Below are positions 28,965 to 51,823 of a DNA stretch of 64,000 nt, piece after piece. The stretch comes from a virus. The position numbers and the translations under genes were made by a program. The first letter of the stretch is position 1. Each line of letters begins with the position of its first letter. The notes beneath the pieces are model-generated. The model saw only the letters and a program-made list of their open reading frames with translations. It was not told where the DNA came from and searched no databases. The stretch spans positions 1-64,000 of the IMG/VR virus record IMGVR_UViG_3300032242_003148. One strand, written 5' to 3'.

Positions 28965-29561
28965 TCAGATCATGAACAACTTCTTATCAGTTCGCTCTCC
29001 GCGAATAAAATTCAGGAAAACCTGAACCATCATACCTGCAACTACCGTGGGCAGAGTGTGACTGATGTTTGATTCTTTCTCATGCTTCAACAAGCAACCA
29101 CCACGAATGTCATCGTTGGTGATATATTTTTTGAGCTCTTCTTCTGGTAGCTTTGAATTAAACAAGGCACCCTGGCGACTAGTGCAACGACCATCAATCC
29201 AGAAGTTCTTGTCTTTGTTCTGGAAGCTCCAGTTATATAGTGTGCGGCGGAATTCCATACTGTCCACACAGCTGAAGATAACATCATATTTCTTGAAGTC
29301 CTTCTCCTCCATGAACTTATTAATTCCGTTCACCACATAACGATCTTCTAGCACTTTTACCTTTGGCTTGCCCACATCATCAATCTTATAGTTTTGATGT
29401 AGTAGGTTAGAGGTATCGATGATGTCATTATCATAGATATCAACATCCACACCAGAGTAATCAAATTGCTTACGGTTAAAGCCGTAGTCAAATAGGATAC
29501 CCAATAAGTTTGAACCAATGCCTCCGGCACCGGCTATACCAATTTTTTTTAGTTTAGTCAT
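28965..29561 (-). CDS. ThiF/MoeB/E1-family adenylating enzyme
   Basis: GAGGIG, YD.D.ID.SNL..Q, G.PKV, SCVD and IDGR motifs; candidate catalytic Cys in GGCLL. Confidence 0.92.
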   Translation of the reverse strand: MTKLKKIGIAGAGGIGSNLLGILFDYGFNRKQFDYSGVDVDIYDNDIIDTSNLLHQNYKIDDVGKPKVKVLEDRYVVNGINKFMEEKDFKKYDVIFSCVDSMEFRRTLYNWSFQNKDKNFWIDGRCTSRQGALFNSKLPEEELKKYITNDDIRGGCLLKHEKESNISHTLPTVVAGMMVQVFLNFIRGERTDKKLFMI

Positions 29562-30018
29562 TATAGTTAGTTAGATATTGCAGTGTTTCTAGTCCCATTG
29601 TGAATGTGTGCAGATCTTTCTGCGCTGACCATTCAGAGCATGAGAATTCTCTGTGCTTGTTTGAATATATATAGTTATATTTGAACCCCTGGAATAACTT
29701 GTCGTAATCCAGTTGGCTTGGCATAGGAGAGAACTGTGGGTGAGTATGAAAACTACCATACATGTTCCAGCCTTTATTCATCATAGGGATAATCTTTTCC
29801 CCGAACTCTTTATGGTCTGTTTCATATAAACCGTAAGCAACAGGCTCTCCCTCATGAACGTTTTTAACTTTTACGAAGATAAAGTCCTTATTGTCTCTGG
29901 TTAATATGATACCACCCTCCTCCTCGTTATCCCGGCGACACTCTATAGCGGCACCGGTGATAACTCTGGAGATACGTGTATTTATTTCTTTTATTACGCG
30001 CATGGAATTAATTGCCAT
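29554..30018 (-). CDS. JAB/MPN (JAMM) metalloprotease
   Basis: Complete JAMM motif E..G...HTHP.....PS..D; overlaps the E1 start. Confidence 0.9.
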   Translation of the reverse strand: MAINSMRVIKEINTRISRVITGAAIECRRDNEEEGGIILTRDNKDFIFVKVKNVHEGEPVAYGLYETDHKEFGEKIIPMMNKGWNMYGSFHTHPQFSPMPSQLDYDKLFQGFKYNYIYSNKHREFSCSEWSAQKDLHTFTMGLETLQYLTNYND

Positions 30019-30662
30019 TTCTCGGCGATCTTCTTTGTTAGTAATAGGTCGTTCCTGAGATAGGCTTTGGCCGCCTCAGTATCCCGCTCGTAGGTCTGAT
30101 AGAATAACTCTTCAGACTTATCCTTGTCACCTACTTCAAGGTGCAATGCTAGCTCCTTGAGGCTGGTGTAGTCCTTTCTACGGCAATCCCACATAGCGGC
30201 AAGATCAATAGATCCAGAGTCATATGCAAAACCGCCATCTGTACGGAAGAACTTAGTAAATAGGTTTTTACCATACTTCAATCCCCTGCGGCAAAGGAAT
30301 GGAATATCAAAGTTATTACCGTTAAAAGTAATAATGTTATACGCCCTACCTCCAGGCATGCCGTCAGCTCCGTCAAAGTAGACCAATAGGTCACTGAAGA
30401 TATTTATGAGTTTTTCCTCACTCATACCACAGTATAACTCAGGTTCTTCTTTGCCTATCTCCCAAATACCAATAGCACAGACCTTAGAAGTTAATGCAGA
30501 TAGTGTGCACTTATCGTAGAAGCTAGCTTCTTTACTCCTCAAGTCTTCTGCTACCTTAACAGGGTCTTTTAGCCTGCTATCAGCCTTGAACTCTGGTATG
30601 AATGGCGCTATCTCCTCTTTGGAAAGAGGAGCCGTTTCTATATCTATAATGTATGTGTTCAT
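29994..30662 (-). CDS. DnaQ/PolB-type 3'-5' exonuclease
   Basis: DIET (ExoI), FNG..FDIPFL (ExoII) and YLRND (ExoIII). Confidence 0.85.
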   Translation of the reverse strand: MNTYIIDIETAPLSKEEIAPFIPEFKADSRLKDPVKVAEDLRSKEASFYDKCTLSALTSKVCAIGIWEIGKEEPELYCGMSEEKLINIFSDLLVYFDGADGMPGGRAYNIITFNGNNFDIPFLCRRGLKYGKNLFTKFFRTDGGFAYDSGSIDLAAMWDCRRKDYTSLKELALHLEVGDKDKSEELFYQTYERDTEAAKAYLRNDLLLTKKIAEKWQLIPCA

Positions 30663-30684
30663 AATTTAATTTGTTGCTATGGCT

Positions 30685-30713
30685 TGGTGGGTAAGGATTT
30701 GCCCTACCCACCA
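30685..30713 (-). terminator. Hairpin with GNRA loop (terminator or processing site)
   Basis: TGGTGGGTAGG-GCAA-ATCCTTACCCACCA; U-tail is poor. Confidence 0.45.
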
Positions 30714-30722
30714 TGTTGATTA

Positions 30723-30941
30723 TTACTCAGAGTATCCTCCGTAGTAATCATTATTAGCCATATTGGTTTTTACTCTTACTGCGTCTGATCTGCCTTCTGT
30801 TAGTCTGTGGAATATATTTAATATTCTTATGTATCCCTTATCTGTTTTAACAGAAGATTTACCAAGTCCTGTTACCTTCTGCCTATGATTAAACTTAAAC
30901 TCTAACTGCACTGTTTTTTTATTTTTTTGGGTGCTTTGCAT
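30723..30941 (-). CDS. Hypothetical protein
   Basis: 72 aa ORF filling a gap. Confidence 0.5.
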   Translation of the reverse strand: MQSTQKNKKTVQLEFKFNHRQKVTGLGKSSVKTDKGYIRILNIFHRLTEGRSDAVRVKTNMANNDYYGGYSE

Positions 30942-30964
30942 AGGGTTATATATTTAATAGGTTA

Positions 30965-33037
30965 TTAGGCAGTGAGGTCTAACTGGTCAATTATATCCGC
31001 CACATCATCGCGATCAGGCTGATAGTCATTATGGGCATTCTCATACTGCGGCTGAGCTTCTCCCTTTAGTGTGCCTATTTTGCCCTGCATAACAGAGTCA
31101 TTTTTCAACACATATAGCCTGGCTGCGATATCATCATAGCCAGCACCACGGAAGTGATTATCGTTAACAATACAGCGATATTGCTTTGATTCAAAGTCGT
31201 ATACCTTTGCGTTCTCAACAACTATCGCATATGTTCTAAGACTACCCTTGACCTTGTAGGCTTTCTTGCCCAGGAACTCTATCATTTCTGCTCCTGTTAC
31301 CTTCACAGCACTATCAAGGAAGTTTTTGCTCCTCTCAATAGATTGCTTCTTAGCCTGGTCAGCAACATCAATGATCTTCTTGATGTCATCTGACGTTACC
31401 GTGGTGGTTGTGATGGAATTTTCTGTGCCATCTTCATTTTTTGTAACTGTGGTGAACGTGCAGCAATCCCTGATGGCTCTTGCTAACTCTTCTCTGGCCC
31501 AGCGCCAATTACGGGTTTTGCTAGCCTTGTTACTCCAACGGTCATTGGTTTTCTTGTTAATTGTATCAATTCTAGTAATCAATTTACCAAGACTAACCTT
31601 ACCACCATCATCTCCCTCTACCCTGATCTTGATGCATTTTGCAGCAGGATCAATCCAGAACTTAACAGGTGGAGCAGCAGAGCTGGCTACAGGGCTGTTA
31701 TATTCATCGCGGGTTATAAGGCTATGCATTTTAACAGGCAAGCCATTTGCTATAGCATCATGCCAGCGTATGCTCATTTTGCTGATTCTTCGCACAAACA
31801 GATTATATTCATCCAGGTTGTGATGACAGCTTGCACGATACATAACCTGCTGAACCTCAACAGCATTTATTCTTTTGCCGTTGATCTTTCTGGCTCCATG
31901 TTTGTTCTTGGTAACCTGCACATCAAATCCATTGATTTTAACCAATGGGAATGTATATGTTGCATCGTTAACTTCTTGGGCGTCAACTATATCCTCAAAG
32001 GCATTTGTATAAGTCTCTATGATGGTATAGATGTCAAACTCACCACCAAAGTTGAGTTTTTCGTATAGCACATCAAGTAGGTTATCGCCCTCTATGCTGA
32101 TGTTCTCATACACAGCTGACTTCTTGGTAAGCATGATATTGTTGATGCTGGCTTTTTCAATTTCGCCGGCCTTTAACTTATTGATTACCAGCAGAGAAGT
32201 GTTATTTTGATAATCCTTCTCTATGAACCCTCTGAGCTCATCATACTTACCACGTAGCTTAGGTGGTAGCTTCTTCTCCATTTTCAATCGCATCATCTGC
32301 GCTTCTGTGGAGTGTACAAAGCTGTTATTTTTTAGCATTGTGCATAGCTTAGGATGTAGTGATGCCAGCAGATAGATATGCATTGTGTGTATATCTAGCT
32401 CATTGGTTATAACAATATATCTTTCCTCTTTACCTGATAGGGAAGTATTTGAGAATCCCAGAATAAAGAATCCTTTATCTAGGTAATCATATATAGCGTC
32501 ATCATCACGCCCTATAACAAGTATTTTATTATTTGTATGGGCAGTAGTAACAATCCTATAGGTGTGATTATTCTCCATTACCTCTAGTGGGCTATTCTGA
32601 ATAACATAAGGAGTACGGATTGTATCCGGCATGTCCTTTGGAATAAATCTCATGGTTTTGAACCGCTTGGCAAGTTCAGGGCCATTAGCTTTGTTTATCT
32701 TTTTAGCAGTTCCCTTCTTTTCAGATTCTCCATACTTTAGGGAATCATAGAATTTATGCCCTGGTGTTCCGGAGTTATTCTTATTTGCGAACAAATTTCC
32801 AAGCTCTAGTCCGTTTGTGTTTATTTGTGCTACCTTGGCGTAATTCCATGCAGCTTGAAGTGTTTTGAACTTCAGCTTGTGAATCTTCATGGTGTAGGCA
32901 TTATCATGTGGGAATGGCTTACCATGATTCACTTTTTGCCAGTCGATCTCGAATTCCACAGCACCCTCCGCAGGGAATGCTTTTAACTTATTGAATAAAT
33001 TAATGTATGATTTAAATTTTTTAATAGATAGTTCCAT
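30965..33037 (-). CDS. 690 aa unknown protein; candidate E2-like carrier or target of the Ubl system
   Basis: Directly downstream of the Ubl gene. C-terminal strand-rich segment KVKGSLRTYAI...YRCIV...DDIAARL..LKND contains a lone Cys. Function is inferred. Confidence 0.45.
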   Translation of the reverse strand: MELSIKKFKSYINLFNKLKAFPAEGAVEFEIDWQKVNHGKPFPHDNAYTMKIHKLKFKTLQAAWNYAKVAQINTNGLELGNLFANKNNSGTPGHKFYDSLKYGESEKKGTAKKINKANGPELAKRFKTMRFIPKDMPDTIRTPYVIQNSPLEVMENNHTYRIVTTAHTNNKILVIGRDDDAIYDYLDKGFFILGFSNTSLSGKEERYIVITNELDIHTMHIYLLASLHPKLCTMLKNNSFVHSTEAQMMRLKMEKKLPPKLRGKYDELRGFIEKDYQNNTSLLVINKLKAGEIEKASINNIMLTKKSAVYENISIEGDNLLDVLYEKLNFGGEFDIYTIIETYTNAFEDIVDAQEVNDATYTFPLVKINGFDVQVTKNKHGARKINGKRINAVEVQQVMYRASCHHNLDEYNLFVRRISKMSIRWHDAIANGLPVKMHSLITRDEYNSPVASSAAPPVKFWIDPAAKCIKIRVEGDDGGKVSLGKLITRIDTINKKTNDRWSNKASKTRNWRWAREELARAIRDCCTFTTVTKNEDGTENSITTTTVTSDDIKKIIDVADQAKKQSIERSKNFLDSAVKVTGAEMIEFLGKKAYKVKGSLRTYAIVVENAKVYDFESKQYRCIVNDNHFRGAGYDDIAARLYVLKNDSVMQGKIGTLKGEAQPQYENAHNDYQPDRDDVADIIDQLDLTA

Positions 33038-33068
33038 GTATGTATATGGTTAGTTGTTTAAAATAGAA

Positions 33069-33100
33069 GTGGGAGAAGGGAAATTAATCCCCTCTCCCAC
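33069..33100 (-). terminator. Intrinsic terminator after the Ubl gene
   Basis: GTGGGAGAGGGGA-TTAATT-TCCCTTCTCCCAC followed by TTCTATTTT. Confidence 0.8.
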
Positions 33101-33121
33101 AACATTATTGCCTAACGGCGA

Positions 33122-33385
33122 TTACTTGCTGCCGCCAACAAGAGTTCCAGAAAGAACAATGTTGGTATCCTCAGCTTTACCAAGACGAAGAGCGAGCTTC
33201 TCCTTGTTCTTGTCTGAGGTGACTTCTCCACCATCAAACTCGAAGAGCTGACCGTCGATCCATACCCAGTGGGCGTGTGAGGCCACCTTTTCGGTGATTG
33301 CGGTTACAGCCTGATCCAGGGTCTGGTCAGCGAGTTCAGTGTGTCCGGTGTTATCGGAGATTTTAACGATGTATTTCTTGTCCAT
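33122..33385 (-). CDS. Ubiquitin-like (beta-grasp) protein precursor
   Basis: 87 aa; pattern of N-terminal hairpin, helix, VWIDG and final strand IVLSGTLVGG, followed by an SK extension; E1 and JAB genes lie downstream. Confidence 0.75.
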   Translation of the reverse strand: MDKKYIVKISDNTGHTELADQTLDQAVTAITEKVASHAHWVWIDGQLFEFDGGEVTSDKNKEKLALRLGKAEDTNIVLSGTLVGGSK

Positions 33386-34219: not shown

Positions 34220-34954
34220 CTATTTGTGTATAGGAAATTGTATATGCCTCAACTTACCCGTTTTAAGGGGTCTGTCAATGCATGCCCTGCATCTACTGCA
34301 GGCACCGTAATCTTTTGTACTCTTGGTCTGCTTGTTAACAGCAGGACAAGATAGATACTCTCTATCGTTTAAAAGTTCTTCTGGAAAGGTATCACCCATC
34401 CAAGCAATAGCCACATTAGGATAATCCCTGTATGGCTCGTATGCTTTTAGAACTTGTTTTATATTAACAGGGTCACAACTCAGATATATGGATAAGTTCT
34501 TAACCTCTGCTAGGATAGGTATGGCGAATAGAGACCTGGTATACCCCCAGAATCTAGTATTCGGCCATTCCTTCATAACATGGGCCCAAGCTCTTGCGTA
34601 GACTTCGTTAAAGAAATCTCCTCCCATATGCAGCCTGAAGAACTGCTTGGTGTTTCCACCGCCCAATAAAAACTTCAGTACTGTGTTTCTTATTATCTCC
34701 ACCATAAGAGGATAATCAGCTTTCAATATGATGTTGGTATTGTGATCCTCCACCTTTTGATAGTTCTTGTATATCCTGCTTGTGGTACAAGCATAACAAA
34801 CATCCTCACAACCCTCATCTCCACCTGTGGCTCCTGGACAAGTACCACCTCGTTCTGGTTTACCGGTTTTGAGTCCGAATGTGTTTTTATGGTTTTTGTG
34901 AAACCTTGTTTTCCTGTTCTCTGATAACTTAAAGCTTAATAGGCTGTTTAGCAT
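34220..34954 (-). CDS. GP88-family Cys-rich (radical-SAM-like) phage protein
   Basis: TCPGAT...C...CYA, FRLH.GGDF, FWGYTRS and CPA...C..CRAC motifs. Confidence 0.75.
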   Translation of the reverse strand: MLNSLLSFKLSENRKTRFHKNHKNTFGLKTGKPERGGTCPGATGGDEGCEDVCYACTTSRIYKNYQKVEDHNTNIILKADYPLMVEIIRNTVLKFLLGGGNTKQFFRLHMGGDFFNEVYARAWAHVMKEWPNTRFWGYTRSLFAIPILAEVKNLSIYLSCDPVNIKQVLKAYEPYRDYPNVAIAWMGDTFPEELLNDREYLSCPAVNKQTKSTKDYGACSRCRACIDRPLKTGKLRHIQFPIHK

Positions 34955-35158: not shown

Positions 35159-37846
35159 TTAATGGCTCCAGTCCCATGATTGGGTCTGATTGTTCCAAAC
35201 TGTTTCTTTCTCGAAGAATTTCTTCTTACCTTTCCATCTGTCACTAACAACTAACTCACAACCTAGTTTATCTCCTGTGGCGATTCTTGTGTAATCACAG
35301 AAGACATGTCTTAGTATCTCAGGAAGATAGTTATCTTTCATAAGATCTTTGTGAGCAATCCAGTAGTTAGCATCATGTACCACATTAACAGGATAAATAT
35401 ATTTCATCCAGAGGCCCTCACTCTTTAGGAATTTTCTGATGTTCACAGAAGCATACCACATGAACAACGCCAATTCAGAAGCCACAGGAAAAGCTAAACT
35501 CTCATTCAGCCAACCTGCCTTGATTCCGAAATTGTCTGTTTTTTCATATGATAACTGCATACCTCTGGCATTAGATATTCTTTCGTAAGCGTTAACCTCA
35601 GCATTACATTCTTCTCTATACCCCATGTATGTACTATATCTCTTCCAGGTTTCCAAAGCATATTGAATCAGCTCTAGCGGAACATGTAATCCGTTTTCAG
35701 CGTAGATCTCAGCCTGAATAGGAATTGCGGCATAGTCCAGCCCTGCAGTATAAGAAACACGAAATGTGATACTCTTTGCGATAACATATTTAGAAACATC
35801 TTTCTTGGATAACCCAGGGTCTTGGAAGTATTCTCGCATCTTGGTTTGATGGAAATTTCCTGCCCTGATATCCTTGATAAACGCTTCATCCTTGCTAAGG
35901 AATGCCATAATTGCAAGGTCTGCACCTGCAATGTCTAGCTCTACCCAATGATAATCCTGACTACCGGAGTAGAATATATTCCTGATGTTGTCTGGTAGCT
36001 TACTGTTGTGATTAGCTTGTTCATCCTTGGTCATTAATGAATAACCAGGTACGAAGATATTAGGGATGTGAGCCAACACCTTTGATGCAGGATTTTGGAC
36101 GTTTGGAGAGCTAGATGCTCGGAAGTTTTTAAGAAGCTCAAAGAAGCTTGCATGTACTCTTCCGTCATTAGCAATCGCCGCCCAATAACTCTGCTTTAGT
36201 GGTTCATCATCATCGCCATCCTCTAACTCTGATTCATCCATGACCACACCTTTCTTGGATAAGAACTTAGTAGCGAATACTCCTATTCTGGAAATATTCA
36301 ACAATAGTTCTACCGCCTTGTGCTTGACTTTTAGATCTTCAGAGTCGTTCTCCTCCATATCCTCCTCTAGTTCGAACTTGATGGTGGATAGGGATTTACC
36401 ATTTGTGCTAGGTGAGAATAGCCTTTGTGTTTGGGGGCTCTGCTTCTCGTACCATACTCTAGGCTTTGGTGACTTTCCTGCTTTTGTATAGTATGCAGGA
36501 GGTAACGCCAAAGTACTGAATAAGAATTCTTTCTTTTGCAGTGAAGAGTTAGGATTGAACCCCTTGATACCAAAGTGGTTATCCATAAAGGTATCCATCT
36601 CCTCTCTCAAGCTGTTATATTTATTCAAATATTTATCAGTGATCTCATTTAATACATCAAGGTCTATGGGTATGCCGGTAAGCTCCATATCCAGGAAGTA
36701 ATTTGTGAGAGGTAGATAAACACCGTCATAATAACCCTTTAGCTCTTTTGGGAAACCCTCACGCATTCTTAAACACGCTTCACGATGAGCCACAGCATCA
36801 CCAGCACAATAATGATAATATGTGTCAGGTTCAAAGAACTTCATCTTTGCTAATGCTGCCTTTGGCAACTTATGCTCTTTCATCTTACGATAGAAAGGAA
36901 CATAGTATGGCTCATAGTTAGTAAACTTCTTAATGCCTGTTTCTAGGCCCTTGGCCATTCTAGAGTCAAAGAAAGCCACTGCCTTCATACCATCAAACCC
37001 TAGAGTCTCATCCGCTAGTTTAAACCCTCTATAGGTCAACCTGATATCGTCAGCGCGTATATTCCAGCCTAGCCTATCTGCTTTAGGATGCTCTAGAATA
37101 AGCTTCATGGTATCTAGTAGCTCACGGTTCTCTGTTACACCATCCTTGGATATGTTAAGAACCACGGCCACATGCTTTTCGCAAGAGTATTGAAACTCAT
37201 ACATCACCTCGTCATCAGTGAACTTACTCCCATACCACTCAGCATCATAACCAATAGAAAACATTTCCCTGGATATATAGTCTTTTAGTATGGCTATATT
37301 CTCTTCAGGACTATCCACTATCTTGTATGTATACTCTTGGTACTGGAGATTATTATCCACTGCTTTTTTGGCTAGCATGAATATATCTCTAAACTCAGGA
37401 CGTTTTGTAGGGTCCTGAACTGTGACCATTCCTGGTGAATAATTAGCTAGTAGCTTACCGTATGGGGAATCTATGATTTCGCCGAGGTAGTCTCCTACCT
37501 TCATATTGGTTTTCATGATTCTCTTGAATACTTCAGCGCCTAGACTAATGATTAGCTGTGGTTTGATTTCTTCTATCTCCTTATCCAGCTTTTCACTCCA
37601 GAATTCTATATCTTCTGCTGGTGGCTTTGGCTTGCTACCTATGCCATTTCTTACCATAGCAGTGAAGTAGCATTCTTCTACTGGTATCTCTGCCTCTTCC
37701 AGGGCATCTAATACTTCGTTGGCTGATCCCCCAGACCTACCAAAATGAGCAACCTGAAGGTCGTCCTTGGTGGGATGGGAGAATACGATCATATATTTCG
37801 CCCCCGGTCCTCCTCTGGGTTTTACTTCTACTTTTGTGTCGCTCAT
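35159..37846 (-). CDS. Family A DNA polymerase with N-terminal UDG-like domain and 3'-5' exonuclease (SPO1-like architecture)
   Basis: UDG-like EI..IKP.LIISLG; exonuclease motifs DAE, NIRAD and YCAGD; polymerase motifs RASSSPNVQN, A (DIAGADL), B (AKSITF...Y) and C (VHD). Confidence 0.9.
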   Translation of the reverse strand: MSDTKVEVKPRGGPGAKYMIVFSHPTKDDLQVAHFGRSGGSANEVLDALEEAEIPVEECYFTAMVRNGIGSKPKPPAEDIEFWSEKLDKEIEEIKPQLIISLGAEVFKRIMKTNMKVGDYLGEIIDSPYGKLLANYSPGMVTVQDPTKRPEFRDIFMLAKKAVDNNLQYQEYTYKIVDSPEENIAILKDYISREMFSIGYDAEWYGSKFTDDEVMYEFQYSCEKHVAVVLNISKDGVTENRELLDTMKLILEHPKADRLGWNIRADDIRLTYRGFKLADETLGFDGMKAVAFFDSRMAKGLETGIKKFTNYEPYYVPFYRKMKEHKLPKAALAKMKFFEPDTYYHYCAGDAVAHREACLRMREGFPKELKGYYDGVYLPLTNYFLDMELTGIPIDLDVLNEITDKYLNKYNSLREEMDTFMDNHFGIKGFNPNSSLQKKEFLFSTLALPPAYYTKAGKSPKPRVWYEKQSPQTQRLFSPSTNGKSLSTIKFELEEDMEENDSEDLKVKHKAVELLLNISRIGVFATKFLSKKGVVMDESELEDGDDDEPLKQSYWAAIANDGRVHASFFELLKNFRASSSPNVQNPASKVLAHIPNIFVPGYSLMTKDEQANHNSKLPDNIRNIFYSGSQDYHWVELDIAGADLAIMAFLSKDEAFIKDIRAGNFHQTKMREYFQDPGLSKKDVSKYVIAKSITFRVSYTAGLDYAAIPIQAEIYAENGLHVPLELIQYALETWKRYSTYMGYREECNAEVNAYERISNARGMQLSYEKTDNFGIKAGWLNESLAFPVASELALFMWYASVNIRKFLKSEGLWMKYIYPVNVVHDANYWIAHKDLMKDNYLPEILRHVFCDYTRIATGDKLGCELVVSDRWKGKKKFFEKETVWNNQTQSWDWSH

Positions 37847-49248: not shown

Positions 49249-50253
49249 TTATACCTCAAGCTTACGGAAGTATTCCCCAGAGATATTGGCCACATCGGTC
49301 ATACTCTTGGCTTCCGAGATAACATTGGTTAACACTCCCTGCAGTTCTTTGACTGCGTCCTTGTCCTTAGCAAAGTCTGTTTCTCCTTTAAGGAGCTTTT
49401 CGACCTTGCTAAGCTCTGCCTCTATGGTCTTATCTTCTATGAAGTTAAGATCACGGAACTCGTTGATGTGTTTCATGAGTGTTTTGATGCTGGTCTCGGA
49501 AACAACCTCTTTCTTTGAGATTTTACCAAGTACAACAGAGCAATGTTCAACCACCTTGCTACGCAGGGTGTTGATAACATCGCCAACGAACTCGTTGATT
49601 TTACCCATGTGAGTATCCAACTGGTTCTTGTACTCCTGCTTGTACTGACGCGCAGCTGCAAGTTTAGCTTCACCAGCAGCCTGCTCACGATTGATTTCAG
49701 TATGAATATCAATGTCAGCAAACTCAGTAGGCAGTTTAACCTCGAAGGATACAATTTCGAATGAGAACTTGCTCTTCACGTTTTCAACGCTAGGATATAG
49801 ATATTCCATATCATCAACATTGATCTGGTCTGCAAACTGCTTGTAGTACTCTATAGCCTCCTCCTTGTAGGTTGGATACTTCTCGATAAACTCATCACGC
49901 ATTTGGATGAACGCTTCTTTATACTCATTCAGCTTCTGATAGACCTCTACATACCTTGCCTTAGGGACAAAGTGTGCTTGAGGAACCAGTGGAAACTGGA
50001 ATGAGTTGGCGTACAAGTAGTTACGGGCCTTGGCCTGTAGACTGCGGAACAGGTTATGTACCGCAGGCTTGATAAGCATTTTCTTGCCGAGCTGAATAAC
50101 CTCAGGAAGTTTGTTATCTAATTTGATATCTTCTTCCGTGAGGCTGTAGCTCATTCCCCACATTGCTATGTGTACATTCACAAGCTTTCCATCTTGGAAT
50201 ACCTTGTCGTAGTACTGCTGCAGTGTGTCTGATATTTTGTGTTCTCTTTCCAT
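49249..50253 (-). CDS. DUF3150-like protein
   Basis: LVNV.I..W....L...D.....LG.K.LI, AR.YL and FVP motifs; helical C-terminus. Confidence 0.6.
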   Translation of the reverse strand: MEREHKISDTLQQYYDKVFQDGKLVNVHIAMWGMSYSLTEEDIKLDNKLPEVIQLGKKMLIKPAVHNLFRSLQAKARNYLYANSFQFPLVPQAHFVPKARYVEVYQKLNEYKEAFIQMRDEFIEKYPTYKEEAIEYYKQFADQINVDDMEYLYPSVENVKSKFSFEIVSFEVKLPTEFADIDIHTEINREQAAGEAKLAAARQYKQEYKNQLDTHMGKINEFVGDVINTLRSKVVEHCSVVLGKISKKEVVSETSIKTLMKHINEFRDLNFIEDKTIEAELSKVEKLLKGETDFAKDKDAVKELQGVLTNVISEAKSMTDVANISGEYFRKLEV

Positions 50254-50254
50254 A

Positions 50255-51823
50255 TTATTCCATTGAGATGCTAAGCTTTCGCATAGCGGTTTCTATTGTT
50301 TGGGTTTCGCCCTGATCGTTAAGCATGACTAGCTTGCCGCGGGCTTGTTTACGCATGGTCTGAAGATCTTCCTCGTGCGAATGGGCAAAAGGAATAAACT
50401 CATCCAACTCTGCTAATACATCCTTATCGGATATTTCTTTACCAACATCAAATGCCCTGAACAATGCAGATTTAACCACATCTTCAATCTCAGCACCTGT
50501 GAATTCATCTGATTCAACAACAAATTTCTTTAGATCGAAATCTGAGGGATTGCGGCCATATTTCTTCAATACTACATTGAAGATTTCACGACGTTCTTCA
50601 TCGCTAGGTAGATCAACCCAGAATAACTGGTCAAACCTACCCTTACGAATAAGAGGTGTTGGTAGTATGGTATGATCATTAGAGGTTGCCACAATAAAGG
50701 CAGGATTAGTCCTGTCATTGAGCCAGCCAAGGAACGTACCAAAAATACGAGAGCTAACACCCGTATCCCCCTTACCTGAAACTGCGTCCTTACTAAGACT
50801 CTTTTCAATCTCATCAATAAGGATTACGCATTTACCAATGCTCTCTATAACCTTGATTGCTTCTCGCATGTTACGCTCACTATTACCAACATGAGAATCA
50901 AAGATAGACCCCATGTCGAATTGGAACAATGGGCAGTCAAACTCCTTGGCAATAGATTTACTCACTAGAGTCTTACCCACACCAGGCACAGAGGCCAGCA
51001 ATATACCCTTTGGTAGAGGCAGCTTATAGTCTCTTGCATCCTGTGAATACGCCTTTTTCCTAGAGCGAATCCAACGTTTTAGGCCGTTAAGCCCACCCAC
51101 ATTATCAAACGATATATCAGATGGGATATAGGTTAGCAGTCCATTTTTCTTCAGCTGCTGAATCTTCTCATCGAATACCGTACCCACAAATGGCTGTTCA
51201 AAGCTCTTCGTGGTGGTGTATGCCATAGCAAAAGCATTCTCAATTTCACCAAAGGTCATACCCTTGGCTGCTTCTACTGCCGCTTCTTTGATTTCTTCAG
51301 GAACCACTAGGGCGTCCATTTTATTGTCCTCCCGGGCCTTGTTAACAGAATCAATAATAAATGCTAGACGCTCCTCTATGCTCTTTGCACCAGGGAGATC
51401 GTAGTCTATCAACTGAATCTCTTTTTCCATTTCCGCAGGTATTGCGAATTTATGGCCAACAAGAACCAACATGTTACCCTTGGTCTTTAGAATATTCCAA
51501 AGGTTCCTGAGCAGGCGGATGTTAATCACCTTGTCGAAGTGAAGGTGGAAGTCTTTTAGGATAAAGATATTATCCTCTTCTCTGTAGCTCTGTAGATACT
51601 TGAGAAGCTCTGTGCTGTTATTTAGCCCTTCTGGGTGAATTTGATTTGTATCTTTAAGATTAACCAATCCACGTTGGGCATCCCAGGTGTGTATCTTTGT
51701 TACCTCATCCGTGGAGAATAGCTCCAGGATATCTTTTACTACCCTCTCCTCCTCATGGGTTAGGATGAACAGGCTAGGATAGTGTGCTTTGTAATAGTTT
51801 TTGAATTTTTGTGTGAATTCCAT
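50255..51823 (-). CDS. Ycf46-like AAA+ ATPase
   Basis: T.EEER, LKDFH, VGGL..LK.W, VPGVGKT, IDEIEK, RKGRFD and FTGAEIE motifs. Confidence 0.9.
   Translation of the reverse strand: MEFTQKFKNYYKAHYPSLFILTHEEERVVKDILELFSTDEVTKIHTWDAQRGLVNLKDTNQIHPEGLNNSTELLKYLQSYREEDNIFILKDFHLHFDKVINIRLLRNLWNILKTKGNMLVLVGHKFAIPAEMEKEIQLIDYDLPGAKSIEERLAFIIDSVNKAREDNKMDALVVPEEIKEAAVEAAKGMTFGEIENAFAMAYTTTKSFEQPFVGTVFDEKIQQLKKNGLLTYIPSDISFDNVGGLNGLKRWIRSRKKAYSQDARDYKLPLPKGILLASVPGVGKTLVSKSIAKEFDCPLFQFDMGSIFDSHVGNSERNMREAIKVIESIGKCVILIDEIEKSLSKDAVSGKGDTGVSSRIFGTFLGWLNDRTNPAFIVATSNDHTILPTPLIRKGRFDQLFWVDLPSDEERREIFNVVLKKYGRNPSDFDLKKFVVESDEFTGAEIEDVVKSALFRAFDVGKEISDKDVLAELDEFIPFAHSHEEDLQTMRKQARGKLVMLNDQGETQTIETAMRKLSISME

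What the first reader, a model, noticed from the sequence alone, without database searches (positions are those of the whole stretch)
28965..33385. Candidate phage-encoded ubiquitin-like conjugation system (Ubl-GG-SK, JAB protease, E1, possible carrier)
Seen: a co-oriented cluster of an 87 aa protein ending LVGGSK*, a 690 aa unknown, an exonuclease, an intact JAMM protease (HTHP-x5-S-x2-D) and a ThiF/E1 enzyme whose start overlaps the JAB stop. Known: E1 enzymes adenylate a free C-terminal GG, JAB proteases trim extensions and reverse conjugates, and E1/E2/JAB/Ubl sets act in bacterial anti-phage systems such as Bil and CBASS Cap2/Cap3. Inference: the SK tail makes the Ubl a pro-protein that needs the adjacent JAB, so the phage would carry its own writer, eraser and modifier. 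No thiG, moaE, rhodanese or cysteine desulfurase gene is visible in the window, which favours protein tagging over cofactor synthesis. Possible roles are modifying replication or virion proteins, tagging host proteins, or jamming host Ubl defence.
Basis: partly seen in the sequence, partly recalled or inferred. Interest (0 to 1): 0.95.

Follow-up and report, generated by a model that had tools for sequence, protein, structure and literature searches.

The report
Phage-encoded ubiquitin-like tagging module
An uncultured 166-kb lake phage carries a conserved four-gene kit (a small ubiquitin-like tag ending in Gly-Gly, a minimal activating enzyme, a JAB protease and a 690-residue cysteine protein that probably carries the tag); such machinery has been studied in cells, in bacteria as anti-phage defence, and I found no paper on a phage-encoded version.

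Summary
All the genes lie on the minus strand at the stated coordinates.

- **Tag.** The 87-aa protein is predicted to fold as a beta-grasp. Its Gly-Gly is kept in 49 of 49 homologues, followed by tails of 0 to 109 residues.
- **Enzymes.** The JAB protease has an intact JAMM site. The E1 is a 198-aa bare adenylation domain with one invariant cysteine.
- **Core set.** The core is Ubl, p690, JAB and E1. All four recur in every untruncated one of 73 viral loci. These include a clade with about 25% identity, a different gene order and different neighbours.
- **Not core.** The exonuclease and the small ORFs are variable inserts.
- **p690.** It has two invariant cysteines. One lies in a C-terminal domain whose model has E2/UEV/RWD topology, but the fold scores are weak.
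- **Sulfur route.** The 165.6-kb record holds no known sulfur-transfer partner.

I read this as a self-contained Ubl conjugation pathway (confidence about 0.55). A novel sulfur-carrier pathway is the main rival. No conjugate has been shown.

I found no paper on it and no copy in cultured phages. This scan has already reported the same module on other phage DNA, and my results agree with those reports.

The parts
33122..33385 (-). Ubl: 87-aa beta-grasp protein ending LVGG-SK (the modifier or carrier)
   Evidence: ORF. AF2 model has pLDDT 84 with b-b-a-b-b-a-b order and a disordered tail at 82-87. The Foldseek top 50 are all ubiquitin, SUMO, ISG15, NEDD8 or FAT10 entries, best E 4.9e-3. VIA Z is about 5 to PB1, ISG15, Fubi and SUMO and 4.1 to MoaD and TtuB. 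GG is invariant in 27 of 27 close and 22 of 22 distant homologues, with tails of 0-109 aa.
33069..33100 (-). Terminator-like hairpin between the Ubl and p690 genes
   Evidence: 13-bp stem with 8 GC pairs, a 6-nt loop and a T-rich tail; sequence read. The inference is that it attenuates read-through, giving more Ubl than enzymes.
30965..33037 (-). p690: 690-aa protein, the fourth core component, a candidate E2-like carrier or ligase
   Evidence: It is co-conserved with Ubl, JAB and E1 in every untruncated locus. The family has at least 411 clusters at 50% identity, mostly 600-790 aa, and these are full-length homologues. C404 and C622 are invariant across 35 divergent members. AF2 model has pLDDT 83 and pTM 0.48. 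No sequence family matches except weak DUF7737 hits in 16 of 17 members.
31058..31402 (-). C-terminal domain of p690 (residues about 546-660) with UBC/UEV/RWD-type topology; invariant Cys622 at codon 31172-31174
   Evidence: Predicted order is helix 561-581, four strands 584-614, a loop carrying C622, then helix 635-645. VIA hits over 556-669 are Vps23 UEV Z 4.0, Tsg101 UEV 3.9, UBE2S 3.8, Ube2W 3.7, Ubc9 3.6 and RWD domains 3.3-3.4. The second look gives Knl1, CENP-P and Ctf19-Mcm21 RWD domains, plus a 146-residue chain (8tz0_C) of the entry 'bacterial E1-E2-Ubl complex', probably its E2 by its size, at Z 2.5. All scores are weak.
31826..31828 (-). Codon of invariant Cys404 (RASC motif) in the middle domain of p690
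   Evidence: Invariant in 17 of 17 close and 35 of 35 divergent homologues; codon checked.
30723..30941 (-). 72-aa ORF, variable, not a core component
   Evidence: Found only in the near-identical locus L001; no family match.
29994..30662 (-). 222-aa RNase H-fold 3'-5' exonuclease-like gene, a variable insert inside the module
   Evidence: Matches RNase_H_2 at 6e-6 and DNA_pol_B_exo1 at 4.5e-4. Absent in L009, L012, L013, L015, L016 and L018 and in the distant clade.
29554..30018 (-). JAB/JAMM metalloprotease, 154 aa
   Evidence: Matches Prok-JAB at 7.5e-10, PADLOC JAB models at 1e-7 and desampylase NF041370 at 1e-4, below its cut-off. The motif E..HxH-x7-S-x2-D is intact here and in all homologues.
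28965..29561 (-). Minimal E1-like adenylyltransferase, 198 aa; invariant Cys156 at codon 29094-29096
   Evidence: Matches ThiF at 2e-19 over residues 6-191. The invariant positions are G11, G13 and G14 of the GAGGIG loop, D44, K67, D100, R105 and C156 across 23 sequences of both clades. The best named relative for all 23 is TIGR03736 PRTRC_ThiF, always below its cut-off. There is no rhodanese domain, Zn CxxC motif or separate Cys domain.

Best explanation
The module is a self-contained, phage-encoded ubiquitin-like conjugation pathway with four core parts.

1. The 87-aa beta-grasp Ubl is made in excess, because a terminator follows its gene. Where it carries a tail (SK here), the JAB protease trims it to expose Gly-Gly.
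2. The 198-aa E1 adenylates the terminal glycine. It probably takes the Ubl onto its single invariant Cys156.
3. The Ubl is then passed to invariant Cys622 in the E2-like C-terminal domain of p690. The large N-terminal and middle regions, with a second invariant Cys404, would choose the target or act as a ligase.
4. JAB also removes the tag again.

The module lies among early replication and nucleotide-metabolism genes. Its targets are therefore most likely phage or host proteins handled early in infection, and they are unknown.

Shown here: gene content, fold predictions, active-site motifs, invariant residues and strict co-inheritance. Inferred: every chemical step, the order of transfer and the targets.
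For: - Ubl: the model is a beta-grasp and its structural neighbours are Ubls.
- GG is invariant in 49 of 49 homologues, while the residues after it vary freely from 0 to 109. This is the signature of a processed, C-terminally activated modifier.
- E1 and JAB catalytic motifs are intact in all homologues.
- Ubl, p690, JAB and E1 travel together in 73 viral loci, through a change of gene order and of flanking genes.
- p690 has two cysteines invariant at about 20% identity.
- Its C-terminal domain has helix, four-strand meander, Cys loop, helix topology. In one search, 11 of the 50 listed VIA rows were E2, UEV or RWD proteins over that same stretch; one search adds RWD and UEV domains.
- E1 has exactly one invariant Cys.
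- The 165.6-kb record has no rhodanese, cysteine desulfurase, PP-loop ATPase, PALP enzyme, ThiG or MoaE.
Against: - No conjugate, thioester or cleavage has been observed; everything is inference from sequence.
- The E2 assignment rests on weak structural scores (Z 2.5-4.0), which the tool itself places in the range of chance arrangements.
- No E2 sequence model matches p690 or anything else in the genome, and the HPN motif is absent.
- The E1 lacks the Ubl-binding C-terminal domain and the Cys domain of conjugating E1s.
- Its nearest curated relatives, apart from the uncharacterised PRTRC ThiF, are sulfur-carrier ThiF enzymes.
- E1 + Ubl-GG + JAB + one further enzyme is also the layout of sulfur-carrier systems such as CysO/Mec+/CysM and QbsCDE (own knowledge).
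- The record is only about 85% complete, and the host could supply sulfur.
Confidence: 0.55

Rival explanations
1. Sulfur-carrier pathway. E1 adenylates the Ubl, and a host persulfide converts it to a thiocarboxylate. p690 is a new sulfur-using enzyme, for example one that thiolates a nucleotide, DNA or tRNA base or makes a small thio-metabolite. JAB trims the tail and releases a Ubl-product adduct, as Mec+ does for CysO-cysteine.
For: - The E1 is a bare ThiF-type adenylation domain. Its curated neighbours include ThiF at 6.8e-13 and MoeB.
- The structural neighbours of the Ubl include MoaD and TtuB at Z 4.1, within 1 of the Ubl hits.
- The four-part layout parallels CysO/MoeZ/Mec+/CysM and QbsC/D/E (own knowledge).
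- In both clades the module sits beside nucleotide-metabolism and replication genes: PolA here, and RNR, dNMP kinase and PolA in the distant clade. Phage base-modification genes usually lie in such regions.
- The phage carries a large tRNA island (earlier scan notes).
Against: - The 165.6-kb record holds no rhodanese, desulfurase, PP-loop thiolase, PALP enzyme, ThiG or MoaE.
- p690 resembles no known sulfurtransferase.
- Its C-terminal domain looks E2/RWD-like rather than enzymatic.
- The E1 has no fused rhodanese domain.
Confidence: 0.2
2. E2-less conjugation of the SAMP/UbaA or TtuB/TtuC kind. E1 alone activates the Ubl and transfers it. p690 is not a carrier but the dedicated substrate, or a scaffold whose activity the tag switches, and JAB reverses the tag.
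For: - No sequence-detectable E2 exists in the genome.
- The JAB's only NCBIfam match is the haloarchaeal desampylase model (1e-4).
- UbaA is among the E1's weak matches.
- Strict co-inheritance of p690 fits a dedicated substrate as well as it fits an enzyme.
Against: - Two cysteines invariant at about 20% identity are more typical of catalysis than of a lysine-modified substrate.
- Fold hits of the UBC type recur over the Cys622 domain.
- The desampylase and UbaA matches are far below their cut-offs (22 against 130 bits; 16 against 450 bits).
Confidence: 0.15
3. Other C-terminal activation chemistry, of the MccB or PaaA type. E1 adenylates the Gly-Gly terminus so that p690 can attach a non-protein group, or cyclise or amidate it, giving a modified protein or peptide product rather than a tag.
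For: E1-like enzymes also act in peptide maturation (own knowledge: MccB in microcin C, PaaA in pantocin). p690 has many invariant polar residues (N369, R383, N386, R389, N391, E394) around Cys404 that look like an active site.
Against: The substrate here is a folded 85-aa beta-grasp with the classical GG tail, not a short peptide. A JAB deconjugase partner is unexplained in this reading. No transporter or immunity gene lies nearby.
Confidence: 0.05

Closest known systems
BilABCD (bacterial ISG15-like) anti-phage systems, Types I and II (PMC10557695)
   Same: Both are four-part sets of Ubl, E1, E2-like protein and JAB protease. In both, the Ubl has a universally conserved C-terminal Gly followed by up to about nine non-conserved residues, which in Bil the JAB removes. 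A 146-residue chain (8tz0_C) of the entry titled 'bacterial E1-E2-Ubl complex', probably its E2 by its size, appears among the weak structural matches of the p690 C-terminal domain (Z 2.5).
   Different: This module is encoded by the phage, not the host. Its E1 is a 198-aa single adenylation domain with no inactive adenylation domain or Cys domain. The putative E2 is the tail of a 690-aa protein with a second invariant Cys, not a small stand-alone protein. No sequence-level homology to Bil components was detected.
PRTRC cassette (ParB-related, ThiF-related cassette of plasmids and ICEs; TIGR03736 ThiF member)
   Same: It is the nearest named E1 family for all 23 E1 sequences tested (best 2.2e-19). 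It too is carried on mobile elements and is uncharacterised.
   Different: All scores are far below the family cut-off (51 against 144.75 bits for the window protein). No ParB-related gene and no other PRTRC protein family matched any module protein. A cultured jumbo phage, Acinetobacter phage ME3, carries a ThiF gene and a gene annotated 'PRTRC system protein A', but it lacks p690, this Ubl and this JAB.
Archaeal SAMP/UbaA/HvJAMM1 and Thermus TtuB/TtuC (E2-less Ubl systems with a dual sulfur and conjugation role)
   Same: Both have a small beta-grasp ending in GG, a MoeB/ThiF-type E1 with one key Cys, a JAMM protease that reverses or matures the tag, and no recognisable E2 sequence.
   Different: Those E1s are about 270 aa or longer and serve housekeeping sulfur pathways that have identifiable partner enzymes. 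Here there are none in the genome, and an obligatory 690-aa partner is present instead.
CBASS type II Cap2/Cap3
   Same: Both pair a JAB protease with an E1-type adenylation domain. The JAB matches PADLOC CBASS-type JAB models at 1e-7 and the E1 matches E1-E2 models at 8e-5.
   Different: Cap2 is an E1-E2 fusion that conjugates the CD-NTase itself. Here there is no CD-NTase, no fusion, and a dedicated Ubl is present.
Sulfur-carrier sets that include a JAMM protease: CysO/MoeZ/Mec+/CysM and QbsC/QbsD/QbsE (own knowledge)
   Same: Both have a Ubl-GG, with a trimmed tail in QbsE, an E1-like adenylyltransferase, a JAMM protease and one further enzyme.
   Different: The further enzyme there is a PLP cysteine synthase or a known biosynthetic enzyme, and the E1 carries a rhodanese domain. 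Neither is present here.
Lambda and T1 tail-assembly Ubl (TAPI) with the JAB-containing TAPK (PMC1779556)
   Same: It is the only phage Ubl + JAB pairing I found in the literature.
   Different: It has no E1, lies in the tail-assembly module, and its Ubl is fused to another domain. This module lies among replication genes and has its own E1.

Membership tests
Ubiquitin-like beta-grasp modifiers | beta-grasp fold | tested here: met
   AF2 model has pLDDT 84 and pTM 0.75 with b-b-a-b-b-a-b order. The Foldseek top 50 are all Ubls, best E 4.9e-3, probability up to 0.97, TM about 0.4. VIA Z is 4-5.3 to PB1, ISG15, Fubi, SUMO, MoaD and TtuB. The scores are modest.
Ubiquitin-like beta-grasp modifiers | conserved C-terminal Gly-Gly on a flexible tail, with a free or trimmable C-terminus | tested here: met
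   GG is invariant in 49 of 49 homologues. 21 end at GG and the others carry non-conserved tails of 1-109 aa. Model residues 82-87 are disordered.
Ubiquitin-like beta-grasp modifiers | covalent attachment to targets | not testable with these tools
   This needs biochemistry or proteomics.
JAMM/MPN+ metalloproteases | E ... HxH-x7-S-x2-D zinc site | tested here: met
   H91, H93, S101 and D104 plus the NEEEGG Glu are present and conserved in all homologues. Pfam Prok-JAB scores 39.1 bits against a 25-bit cut-off.
E1-like (ThiF/MoeB/UBA) adenylyltransferases | Rossmann-type adenylation domain with a Gly-rich loop, a phosphate-binding Lys and a Mg-binding Asp | tested here: met
   Pfam ThiF scores 70.1 bits against a 28.1-bit cut-off. 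G11, G13 and G14 of the GAGGIG loop, D44, K67, D100 and R105 are invariant.
E1-like (ThiF/MoeB/UBA) adenylyltransferases | catalytic Cys that takes the Ubl as a thioester (conjugating E1s only) | tested here: inconclusive
   One invariant Cys, C156, lies after the last core strand, where the crossover loop is expected.
E2 / UBC superfold (for p690 residues about 546-660) | helix, four-strand antiparallel meander, Cys-bearing loop, helix topology | tested here: inconclusive
   The predicted secondary-structure order fits. In one search, 11 of the 50 listed rows are E2, UEV or RWD proteins over residues 556-669 at Z 3.2-4.0; one search adds RWD and UEV domains at Z 2.4-3.6. These Z values are in the tool's chance range, and the domain could not be folded alone.
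E2 / UBC superfold (for p690 residues about 546-660) | match to UQ_con or Prok-E2 sequence models; HPN motif | tested here: not met
   Pfam gives no hit at E<=1 for 17 members. The whole genome gives no hit to PF00179, PF14461 or PF14457 at E<=1. There is no HPN motif before Cys622.
E2 / UBC superfold (for p690 residues about 546-660) | invariant active-site Cys | tested here: met
   C622 is invariant in 17 close and 35 divergent homologues.
BilABCD | E1 (BilD) with inactive and active adenylation domains and a Cys domain; separate small E2 (BilB) | tested here: not met
   The E1 is 198 aa, with one ThiF domain covering residues 6-191. No small E2 gene is present. Bil features are taken from PMC10557695.
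PRTRC cassette | ThiF member scoring above the TIGR03736 cut-off, with ParB-related and PRTRC A-F partners | tested here: not met
   The score is 51 bits against a 144.75-bit cut-off. No other PRTRC family matched any module protein.
SAMP/UbaA/desampylase | equivalog-level match to UbaA and to the desampylase | tested here: not met
   UbaA scores 16.2 bits against 450 and the desampylase 22.2 bits against 130.
ThiS/ThiF, MoaD/MoeB, CysO/CysM and TtuB/TtuA sulfur-carrier pathways | a partner enzyme that uses the thiocarboxylate (ThiG, MoaE, PLP CysM, PP-loop TtuA) and a sulfur donor (rhodanese, cysteine desulfurase) | tested here: not met
   The 165,606-bp record has none of PF05690, PF02391, PF00291, PF01171, PF00581 or PF00266, while the control genomes score. 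Caveats: the record is about 85% complete and host enzymes could serve.

The most novel reading that the evidence does not exclude
Phages of several uncultured lineages encode a complete ubiquitination-like cascade that runs through three invariant cysteines: E1 Cys156, then the p690 E2-like Cys622, then p690 Cys404, so that p690 would act as an E2/E3 hybrid. The phage would use it early in infection to tag host or phage proteins, for example to disarm host defence or to control replication. That would be a viral counterpart of the bacterial Bil and CBASS conjugation machinery.
Probability: 0.3. Interest if true: 0.9.

Novelty: new variant of a known kind. Interest (0 to 1): 0.8.

Why it matters
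In the papers I could search, ubiquitin-like conjugation in bacteria has been characterised as a host weapon against phages (Bil, type II CBASS, probably Bub).

A conserved phage-encoded writer, eraser and tag would turn that picture around. It would give phages a post-translational tool of their own. It would also supply a very small E1 (198 aa) and a new E2-like architecture for studying the minimal chemistry of Ubl transfer.

If it instead proves to be a sulfur carrier, it points to an unknown thio-modification made by phages next to their replication genes.

Either outcome can be tested directly with four cloned genes in a laboratory E. coli strain.

Tried and rejected
**Searches that found nothing**
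- INPHARED phages: no DNA or protein match for the module, E1, Ubl or a distant p690 homologue.
- Distant ThiF genes in cultured jumbo phages (Acinetobacter ME3, Bacillus WH1 and others) were inspected. They lack this Ubl, JAB and p690, so they are a different system.
- PDB by sequence: nothing for E1 or p690, and only marginal JAMM hits for JAB.
- Foldseek of p690 against PDB: no credible match. BFVD gave three unnamed viral proteins.
- ESM Atlas: no usable hit, tried twice.
- Literature: four full-text searches found no paper on a phage-encoded E1/JAB/Ubl module; a fifth, on PRTRC and ThiF, found only genome-annotation mentions of that cassette. 'DUF7737' occurs in no paper. Subscription journals are not covered.
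- Longer fused forms of the Ubl: none found, which is weak evidence.

**Candidates ruled out**
- The exonuclease, the 72-aa ORF and the 100-aa ORF downstream of E1 were considered as components or a hidden E2. All are variable across loci and match no family.

**Cellular genomes**
- The p690 pattern scan found none in 185,579 species genomes.
It returned only unrelated ThiF genes, one of which proved to be a housekeeping gene beside rhodanese and a desulfurase.
- This is only weak evidence that cells lack the module.

**Tools unavailable**
- I therefore could not inspect contexts of database hits by identity or look for expression.

Full report
**What is there**

In order of transcription they are:
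- Ubl, 33385..33122, 87 aa, ending LVGGSK
- p690, 33037..30965, 690 aa
- a 72-aa ORF, 30941..30723
- an RNase H-fold exonuclease-like gene, 30662..29994
- JAB, 30018..29554
- E1, 29561..28965

Pfam places JAB in Prok-JAB (7.5e-10) and E1 in ThiF (2e-19). The Ubl, p690 and the 72-aa ORF match nothing above threshold in Pfam, PHROGs, NCBIfam or PADLOC.

The JAMM site reads H91-x-H93-x7-S101-x2-D104 with the upstream Glu, which is the canonical spacing. The E1 start overlaps the JAB stop by 8 nt.

A strong terminator-like hairpin at 33100..33069 separates the Ubl from p690. This supports the idea, noted earlier in the scan, that the Ubl is made in excess.

The window belongs to a 165,606-bp virus record estimated 85% complete. 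The surrounding genes are a replication block:
- a UDG-PolA fusion, a DnaB-like helicase and an SF2 helicase
- SbcC-like and SbcD-like genes
- a RecA-like gene

**The Ubl**

Sixteen clusters of close homologues exist among 5.8 billion proteins. With those taken from related viral contigs, 27 sequences align.
- Gly-Gly is invariant.
- What follows it is not conserved. Five sequences end at GG and most carry 1-9 unrelated residues.
- One lineage (L019) carries 109 further residues that occur nowhere else.

In a second, much more distant clade, 22 further Ubls all end in GG. Sixteen of them have no tail.

The AF2 model built on the 27-sequence alignment has pLDDT 84 and pTM 0.75. Its order is strand-strand-helix-strand-strand-helix-strand, with a disordered tail at 82-87.
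- Foldseek's top 50 PDB matches are all ubiquitin, SUMO, ISG15, NEDD8 or FAT10 entries. They are weak, with best E 4.9e-3 and TM about 0.4.
- An exhaustive structural scan gives Z about 5 to PB1, ISG15, Fubi and SUMO, and 4.1 to MoaD and TtuB.

I take the beta-grasp fold and the activated-C-terminus signature as established at the level that prediction allows. The scores do not separate a ubiquitin type from a ThiS/MoaD type.

**What belongs to the system**

Nineteen IMG/VR loci carrying a close E1 homologue keep the order Ubl, p690, JAB, E1, except where a contig end cuts the locus. In L019 the Ubl escaped tblastn and was found by ORF inspection. Among the 16 distinct loci that cover that interval, the exonuclease is absent from six. 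The 72-aa ORF and the 100-aa ORF downstream of E1 are variable. None of these is core.

A profile of the p690 C-terminal domain, searched against 1.84 billion representatives, found 411 clusters at E<=1e-3. Most are 600-790 aa proteins with the domain at the very end, and they are full-length homologues.

Fetching viral loci with a divergent set of them revealed a second clade, L020-L049. There p690 is only about 20-28% identical.
- The gene order there is p690, Ubl, JAB, E1.
- The neighbours are ribonucleotide reductase, a sigma-70 factor, PolA and a dNMP kinase, not the window's neighbours.
- All four genes are present in every locus of that clade. Across all 73 loci, the only ones lacking a gene are cut by a contig end.

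Co-inheritance through a rearrangement and a change of context is the strongest evidence that p690 is a working part of the module. In both clades the module sits among replication and nucleotide-metabolism genes.

**The E1**

An alignment of 23 E1s from both clades keeps G11, G13 and G14 of the GAGGIG loop, D44, K67, D100 and R105, and exactly one cysteine, C156.

At 198 aa the protein is little more than the adenylation domain. It has no rhodanese domain, no zinc CxxC pairs, no separate Cys domain, and no C-terminal sheet of the kind that holds ThiS or MoaD in ThiF and MoeB (the comparison is from own knowledge).

All 23 score best against TIGR03736, the ThiF member of the uncharacterised PRTRC cassette of plasmids and ICEs. 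All are far below its cut-off, and ThiF proper comes next. So this is a new E1 subfamily, not a member of any named one.

**p690**

The AF2 model has pLDDT 83 but pTM 0.48, which means confident domains in uncertain mutual orientation. Two cysteines, C404 and C622, are invariant in 17 close and 35 divergent homologues.

The last domain is predicted as a long helix (561-581), four short strands (584-614), a loop carrying C622, and then a helix (635-645). This is the order of the UBC fold.
- In the exhaustive structural scan, 11 of the 50 listed matches fall on residues 556-669. They are E2, UEV or RWD proteins: Vps23 and Tsg101 UEV, UBE2S, Ube2W, Ubc9, UBE2E1, a Plasmodium E2, Fts and two RWD domains (Z 3.2-4.0).
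- A second look at Foldseek's candidates adds the Knl1, CENP-P and Ctf19-Mcm21 RWD domains and BRE. It also adds a 146-residue chain of the entry titled 'bacterial E1-E2-Ubl complex' (8tz0_C, Z 2.5), which I take to be its E2 from its size.

Each score is within the tool's chance range. A 690-residue query also weakens single-domain matches. The recurrence of one superfold on one stretch is suggestive, not proof.

No E2 sequence model matches p690 or anything else in the genome, and there is no HPN motif.

Sixteen of the 17 close homologues weakly match Pfam DUF7737 (best 0.0024). No paper mentions that domain. Earlier scan notes recall it as the C-terminal module of DUF4132 proteins, which I could not check.

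**Conjugation or sulfur transfer**

The genome has no rhodanese, class-V aminotransferase, PP-loop ATPase, PALP enzyme, ThiG or MoaE, while the control genomes score for each. That removes every known user of a Ubl thiocarboxylate. It does not remove a new one, and p690 could be it, because the host could supply the persulfide.

JAB cannot serve only to mature the Ubl, because 21 of the 49 Ubls need no trimming. It must therefore also act on a product. That product could be a conjugate, which fits tagging, or a Ubl-product adduct as in CysO/Mec+, which fits a sulfur carrier.

Three things tip my reading toward conjugation: the single invariant Cys in the E1, the two in p690, and the E2-like topology. 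My confidences are:
- 0.55 for an E1 to p690 to target cascade
- 0.20 for a sulfur carrier
- 0.15 for E2-less conjugation with p690 as substrate or scaffold
- 0.05 for other C-terminal chemistry

**Comparison with known systems**

The module works most like Bil: a Ubl with a conserved Gly and a disposable tail, an E1, an E2 and a JAB (PMC10557695). It is not a member of that family, because the E1 architecture and the stand-alone E2 are not met and no sequence homology was found. It is also not a member of PRTRC, SAMP/UbaA, CBASS Cap2/Cap3 or any sulfur-carrier family by their cut-offs.

The only phage Ubl + JAB pairing I found in the literature is the lambda and T1 tail-assembly pair, which has no E1 (PMC1779556).

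Five further full-text searches found no description of a phage-encoded E1/JAB/Ubl module. INPHARED holds no copy. A pattern scan of 185,579 species genomes found no p690.

**Relation to earlier scan notes**

The scan has reported this same module on other phage genomes. Those reports describe a roughly 700-residue partner with two invariant cysteines, a tail predicted to be E2-type, PRTRC as the nearest E1 family, and recurrence in many viral contigs.

I reached the same points independently before reading them, so they agree with my results. They are not independent evidence.

**Limits**
- Nothing here shows a covalent product.

Noticed in passing
L073:9161-10935 (the same contig as L017, IMGVR_UViG_3300027749_000235): In one related phage the E1 gene is split just after the DIYDDDTV motif by an insert of about 1.15 kb. 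The insert carries a 323-aa ORF with two LAGLIDADG-like motifs (ILGFVYADGC and IRGYVDGDGSF). It is probably a group I intron or a free-standing homing endonuclease that targets a conserved part of the E1 gene.
   Followed up: partly
L019:4816-5403: In the most divergent member of the close clade, the Ubl continues for 109 residues after LLGG. This acidic and then structured extension is found in no other locus. It is either a natural Ubl-fusion precursor that JAB must cleave, or a lost stop codon.
   Followed up: partly
window 49249-51823 (- strand): A classical AAA ATPase of 522 aa (PF00004 at 3.6e-25, with AAA_lid_3) lies next to a DUF3150 protein in the same phage. A protein unfoldase beside a Ubl system invites the question of whether tagged proteins are handed to it. 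No link was tested.
   Followed up: no
window 35159-37846 (- strand): The DNA polymerase is a fusion of a uracil-DNA-glycosylase-superfamily domain (residues 12-153) with a very divergent family A polymerase. DNA_pol_A scores only 34.1 bits, just under its 34.3-bit cut-off.
   Followed up: no
window 34220-34954 (- strand): A Cys-rich GP88-family protein (PF17338, 4e-31; phrog_1392, function unknown) lies upstream of the module, between PolA and the Ubl, in nearly all close relatives. It was not detected within about 7 kb of the module in the distant-clade loci sampled.
   Followed up: partly
L082 (Acinetobacter phage vB_AbaM_ME3, KU935715.1:131501-141833): This cultured jumbo phage carries a 350-aa ThiF gene, followed by a 72-aa ORF ending ...IIVLG and a 549-aa unknown. 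A gene annotated 'PRTRC system protein A' lies 3 kb away. It is a different and also unstudied E1-containing set, one that could be tested in the laboratory.
   Followed up: partly
Ubl residues 10-17 (window 33335-33358) and homologues: The loop between the first two strands of the Ubl keeps a S-x-x-G-H-(T/D)-E motif in nearly all members of both clades. This is unusual for ubiquitin-like proteins and marks a conserved contact or metal site of unknown role.
   Followed up: no
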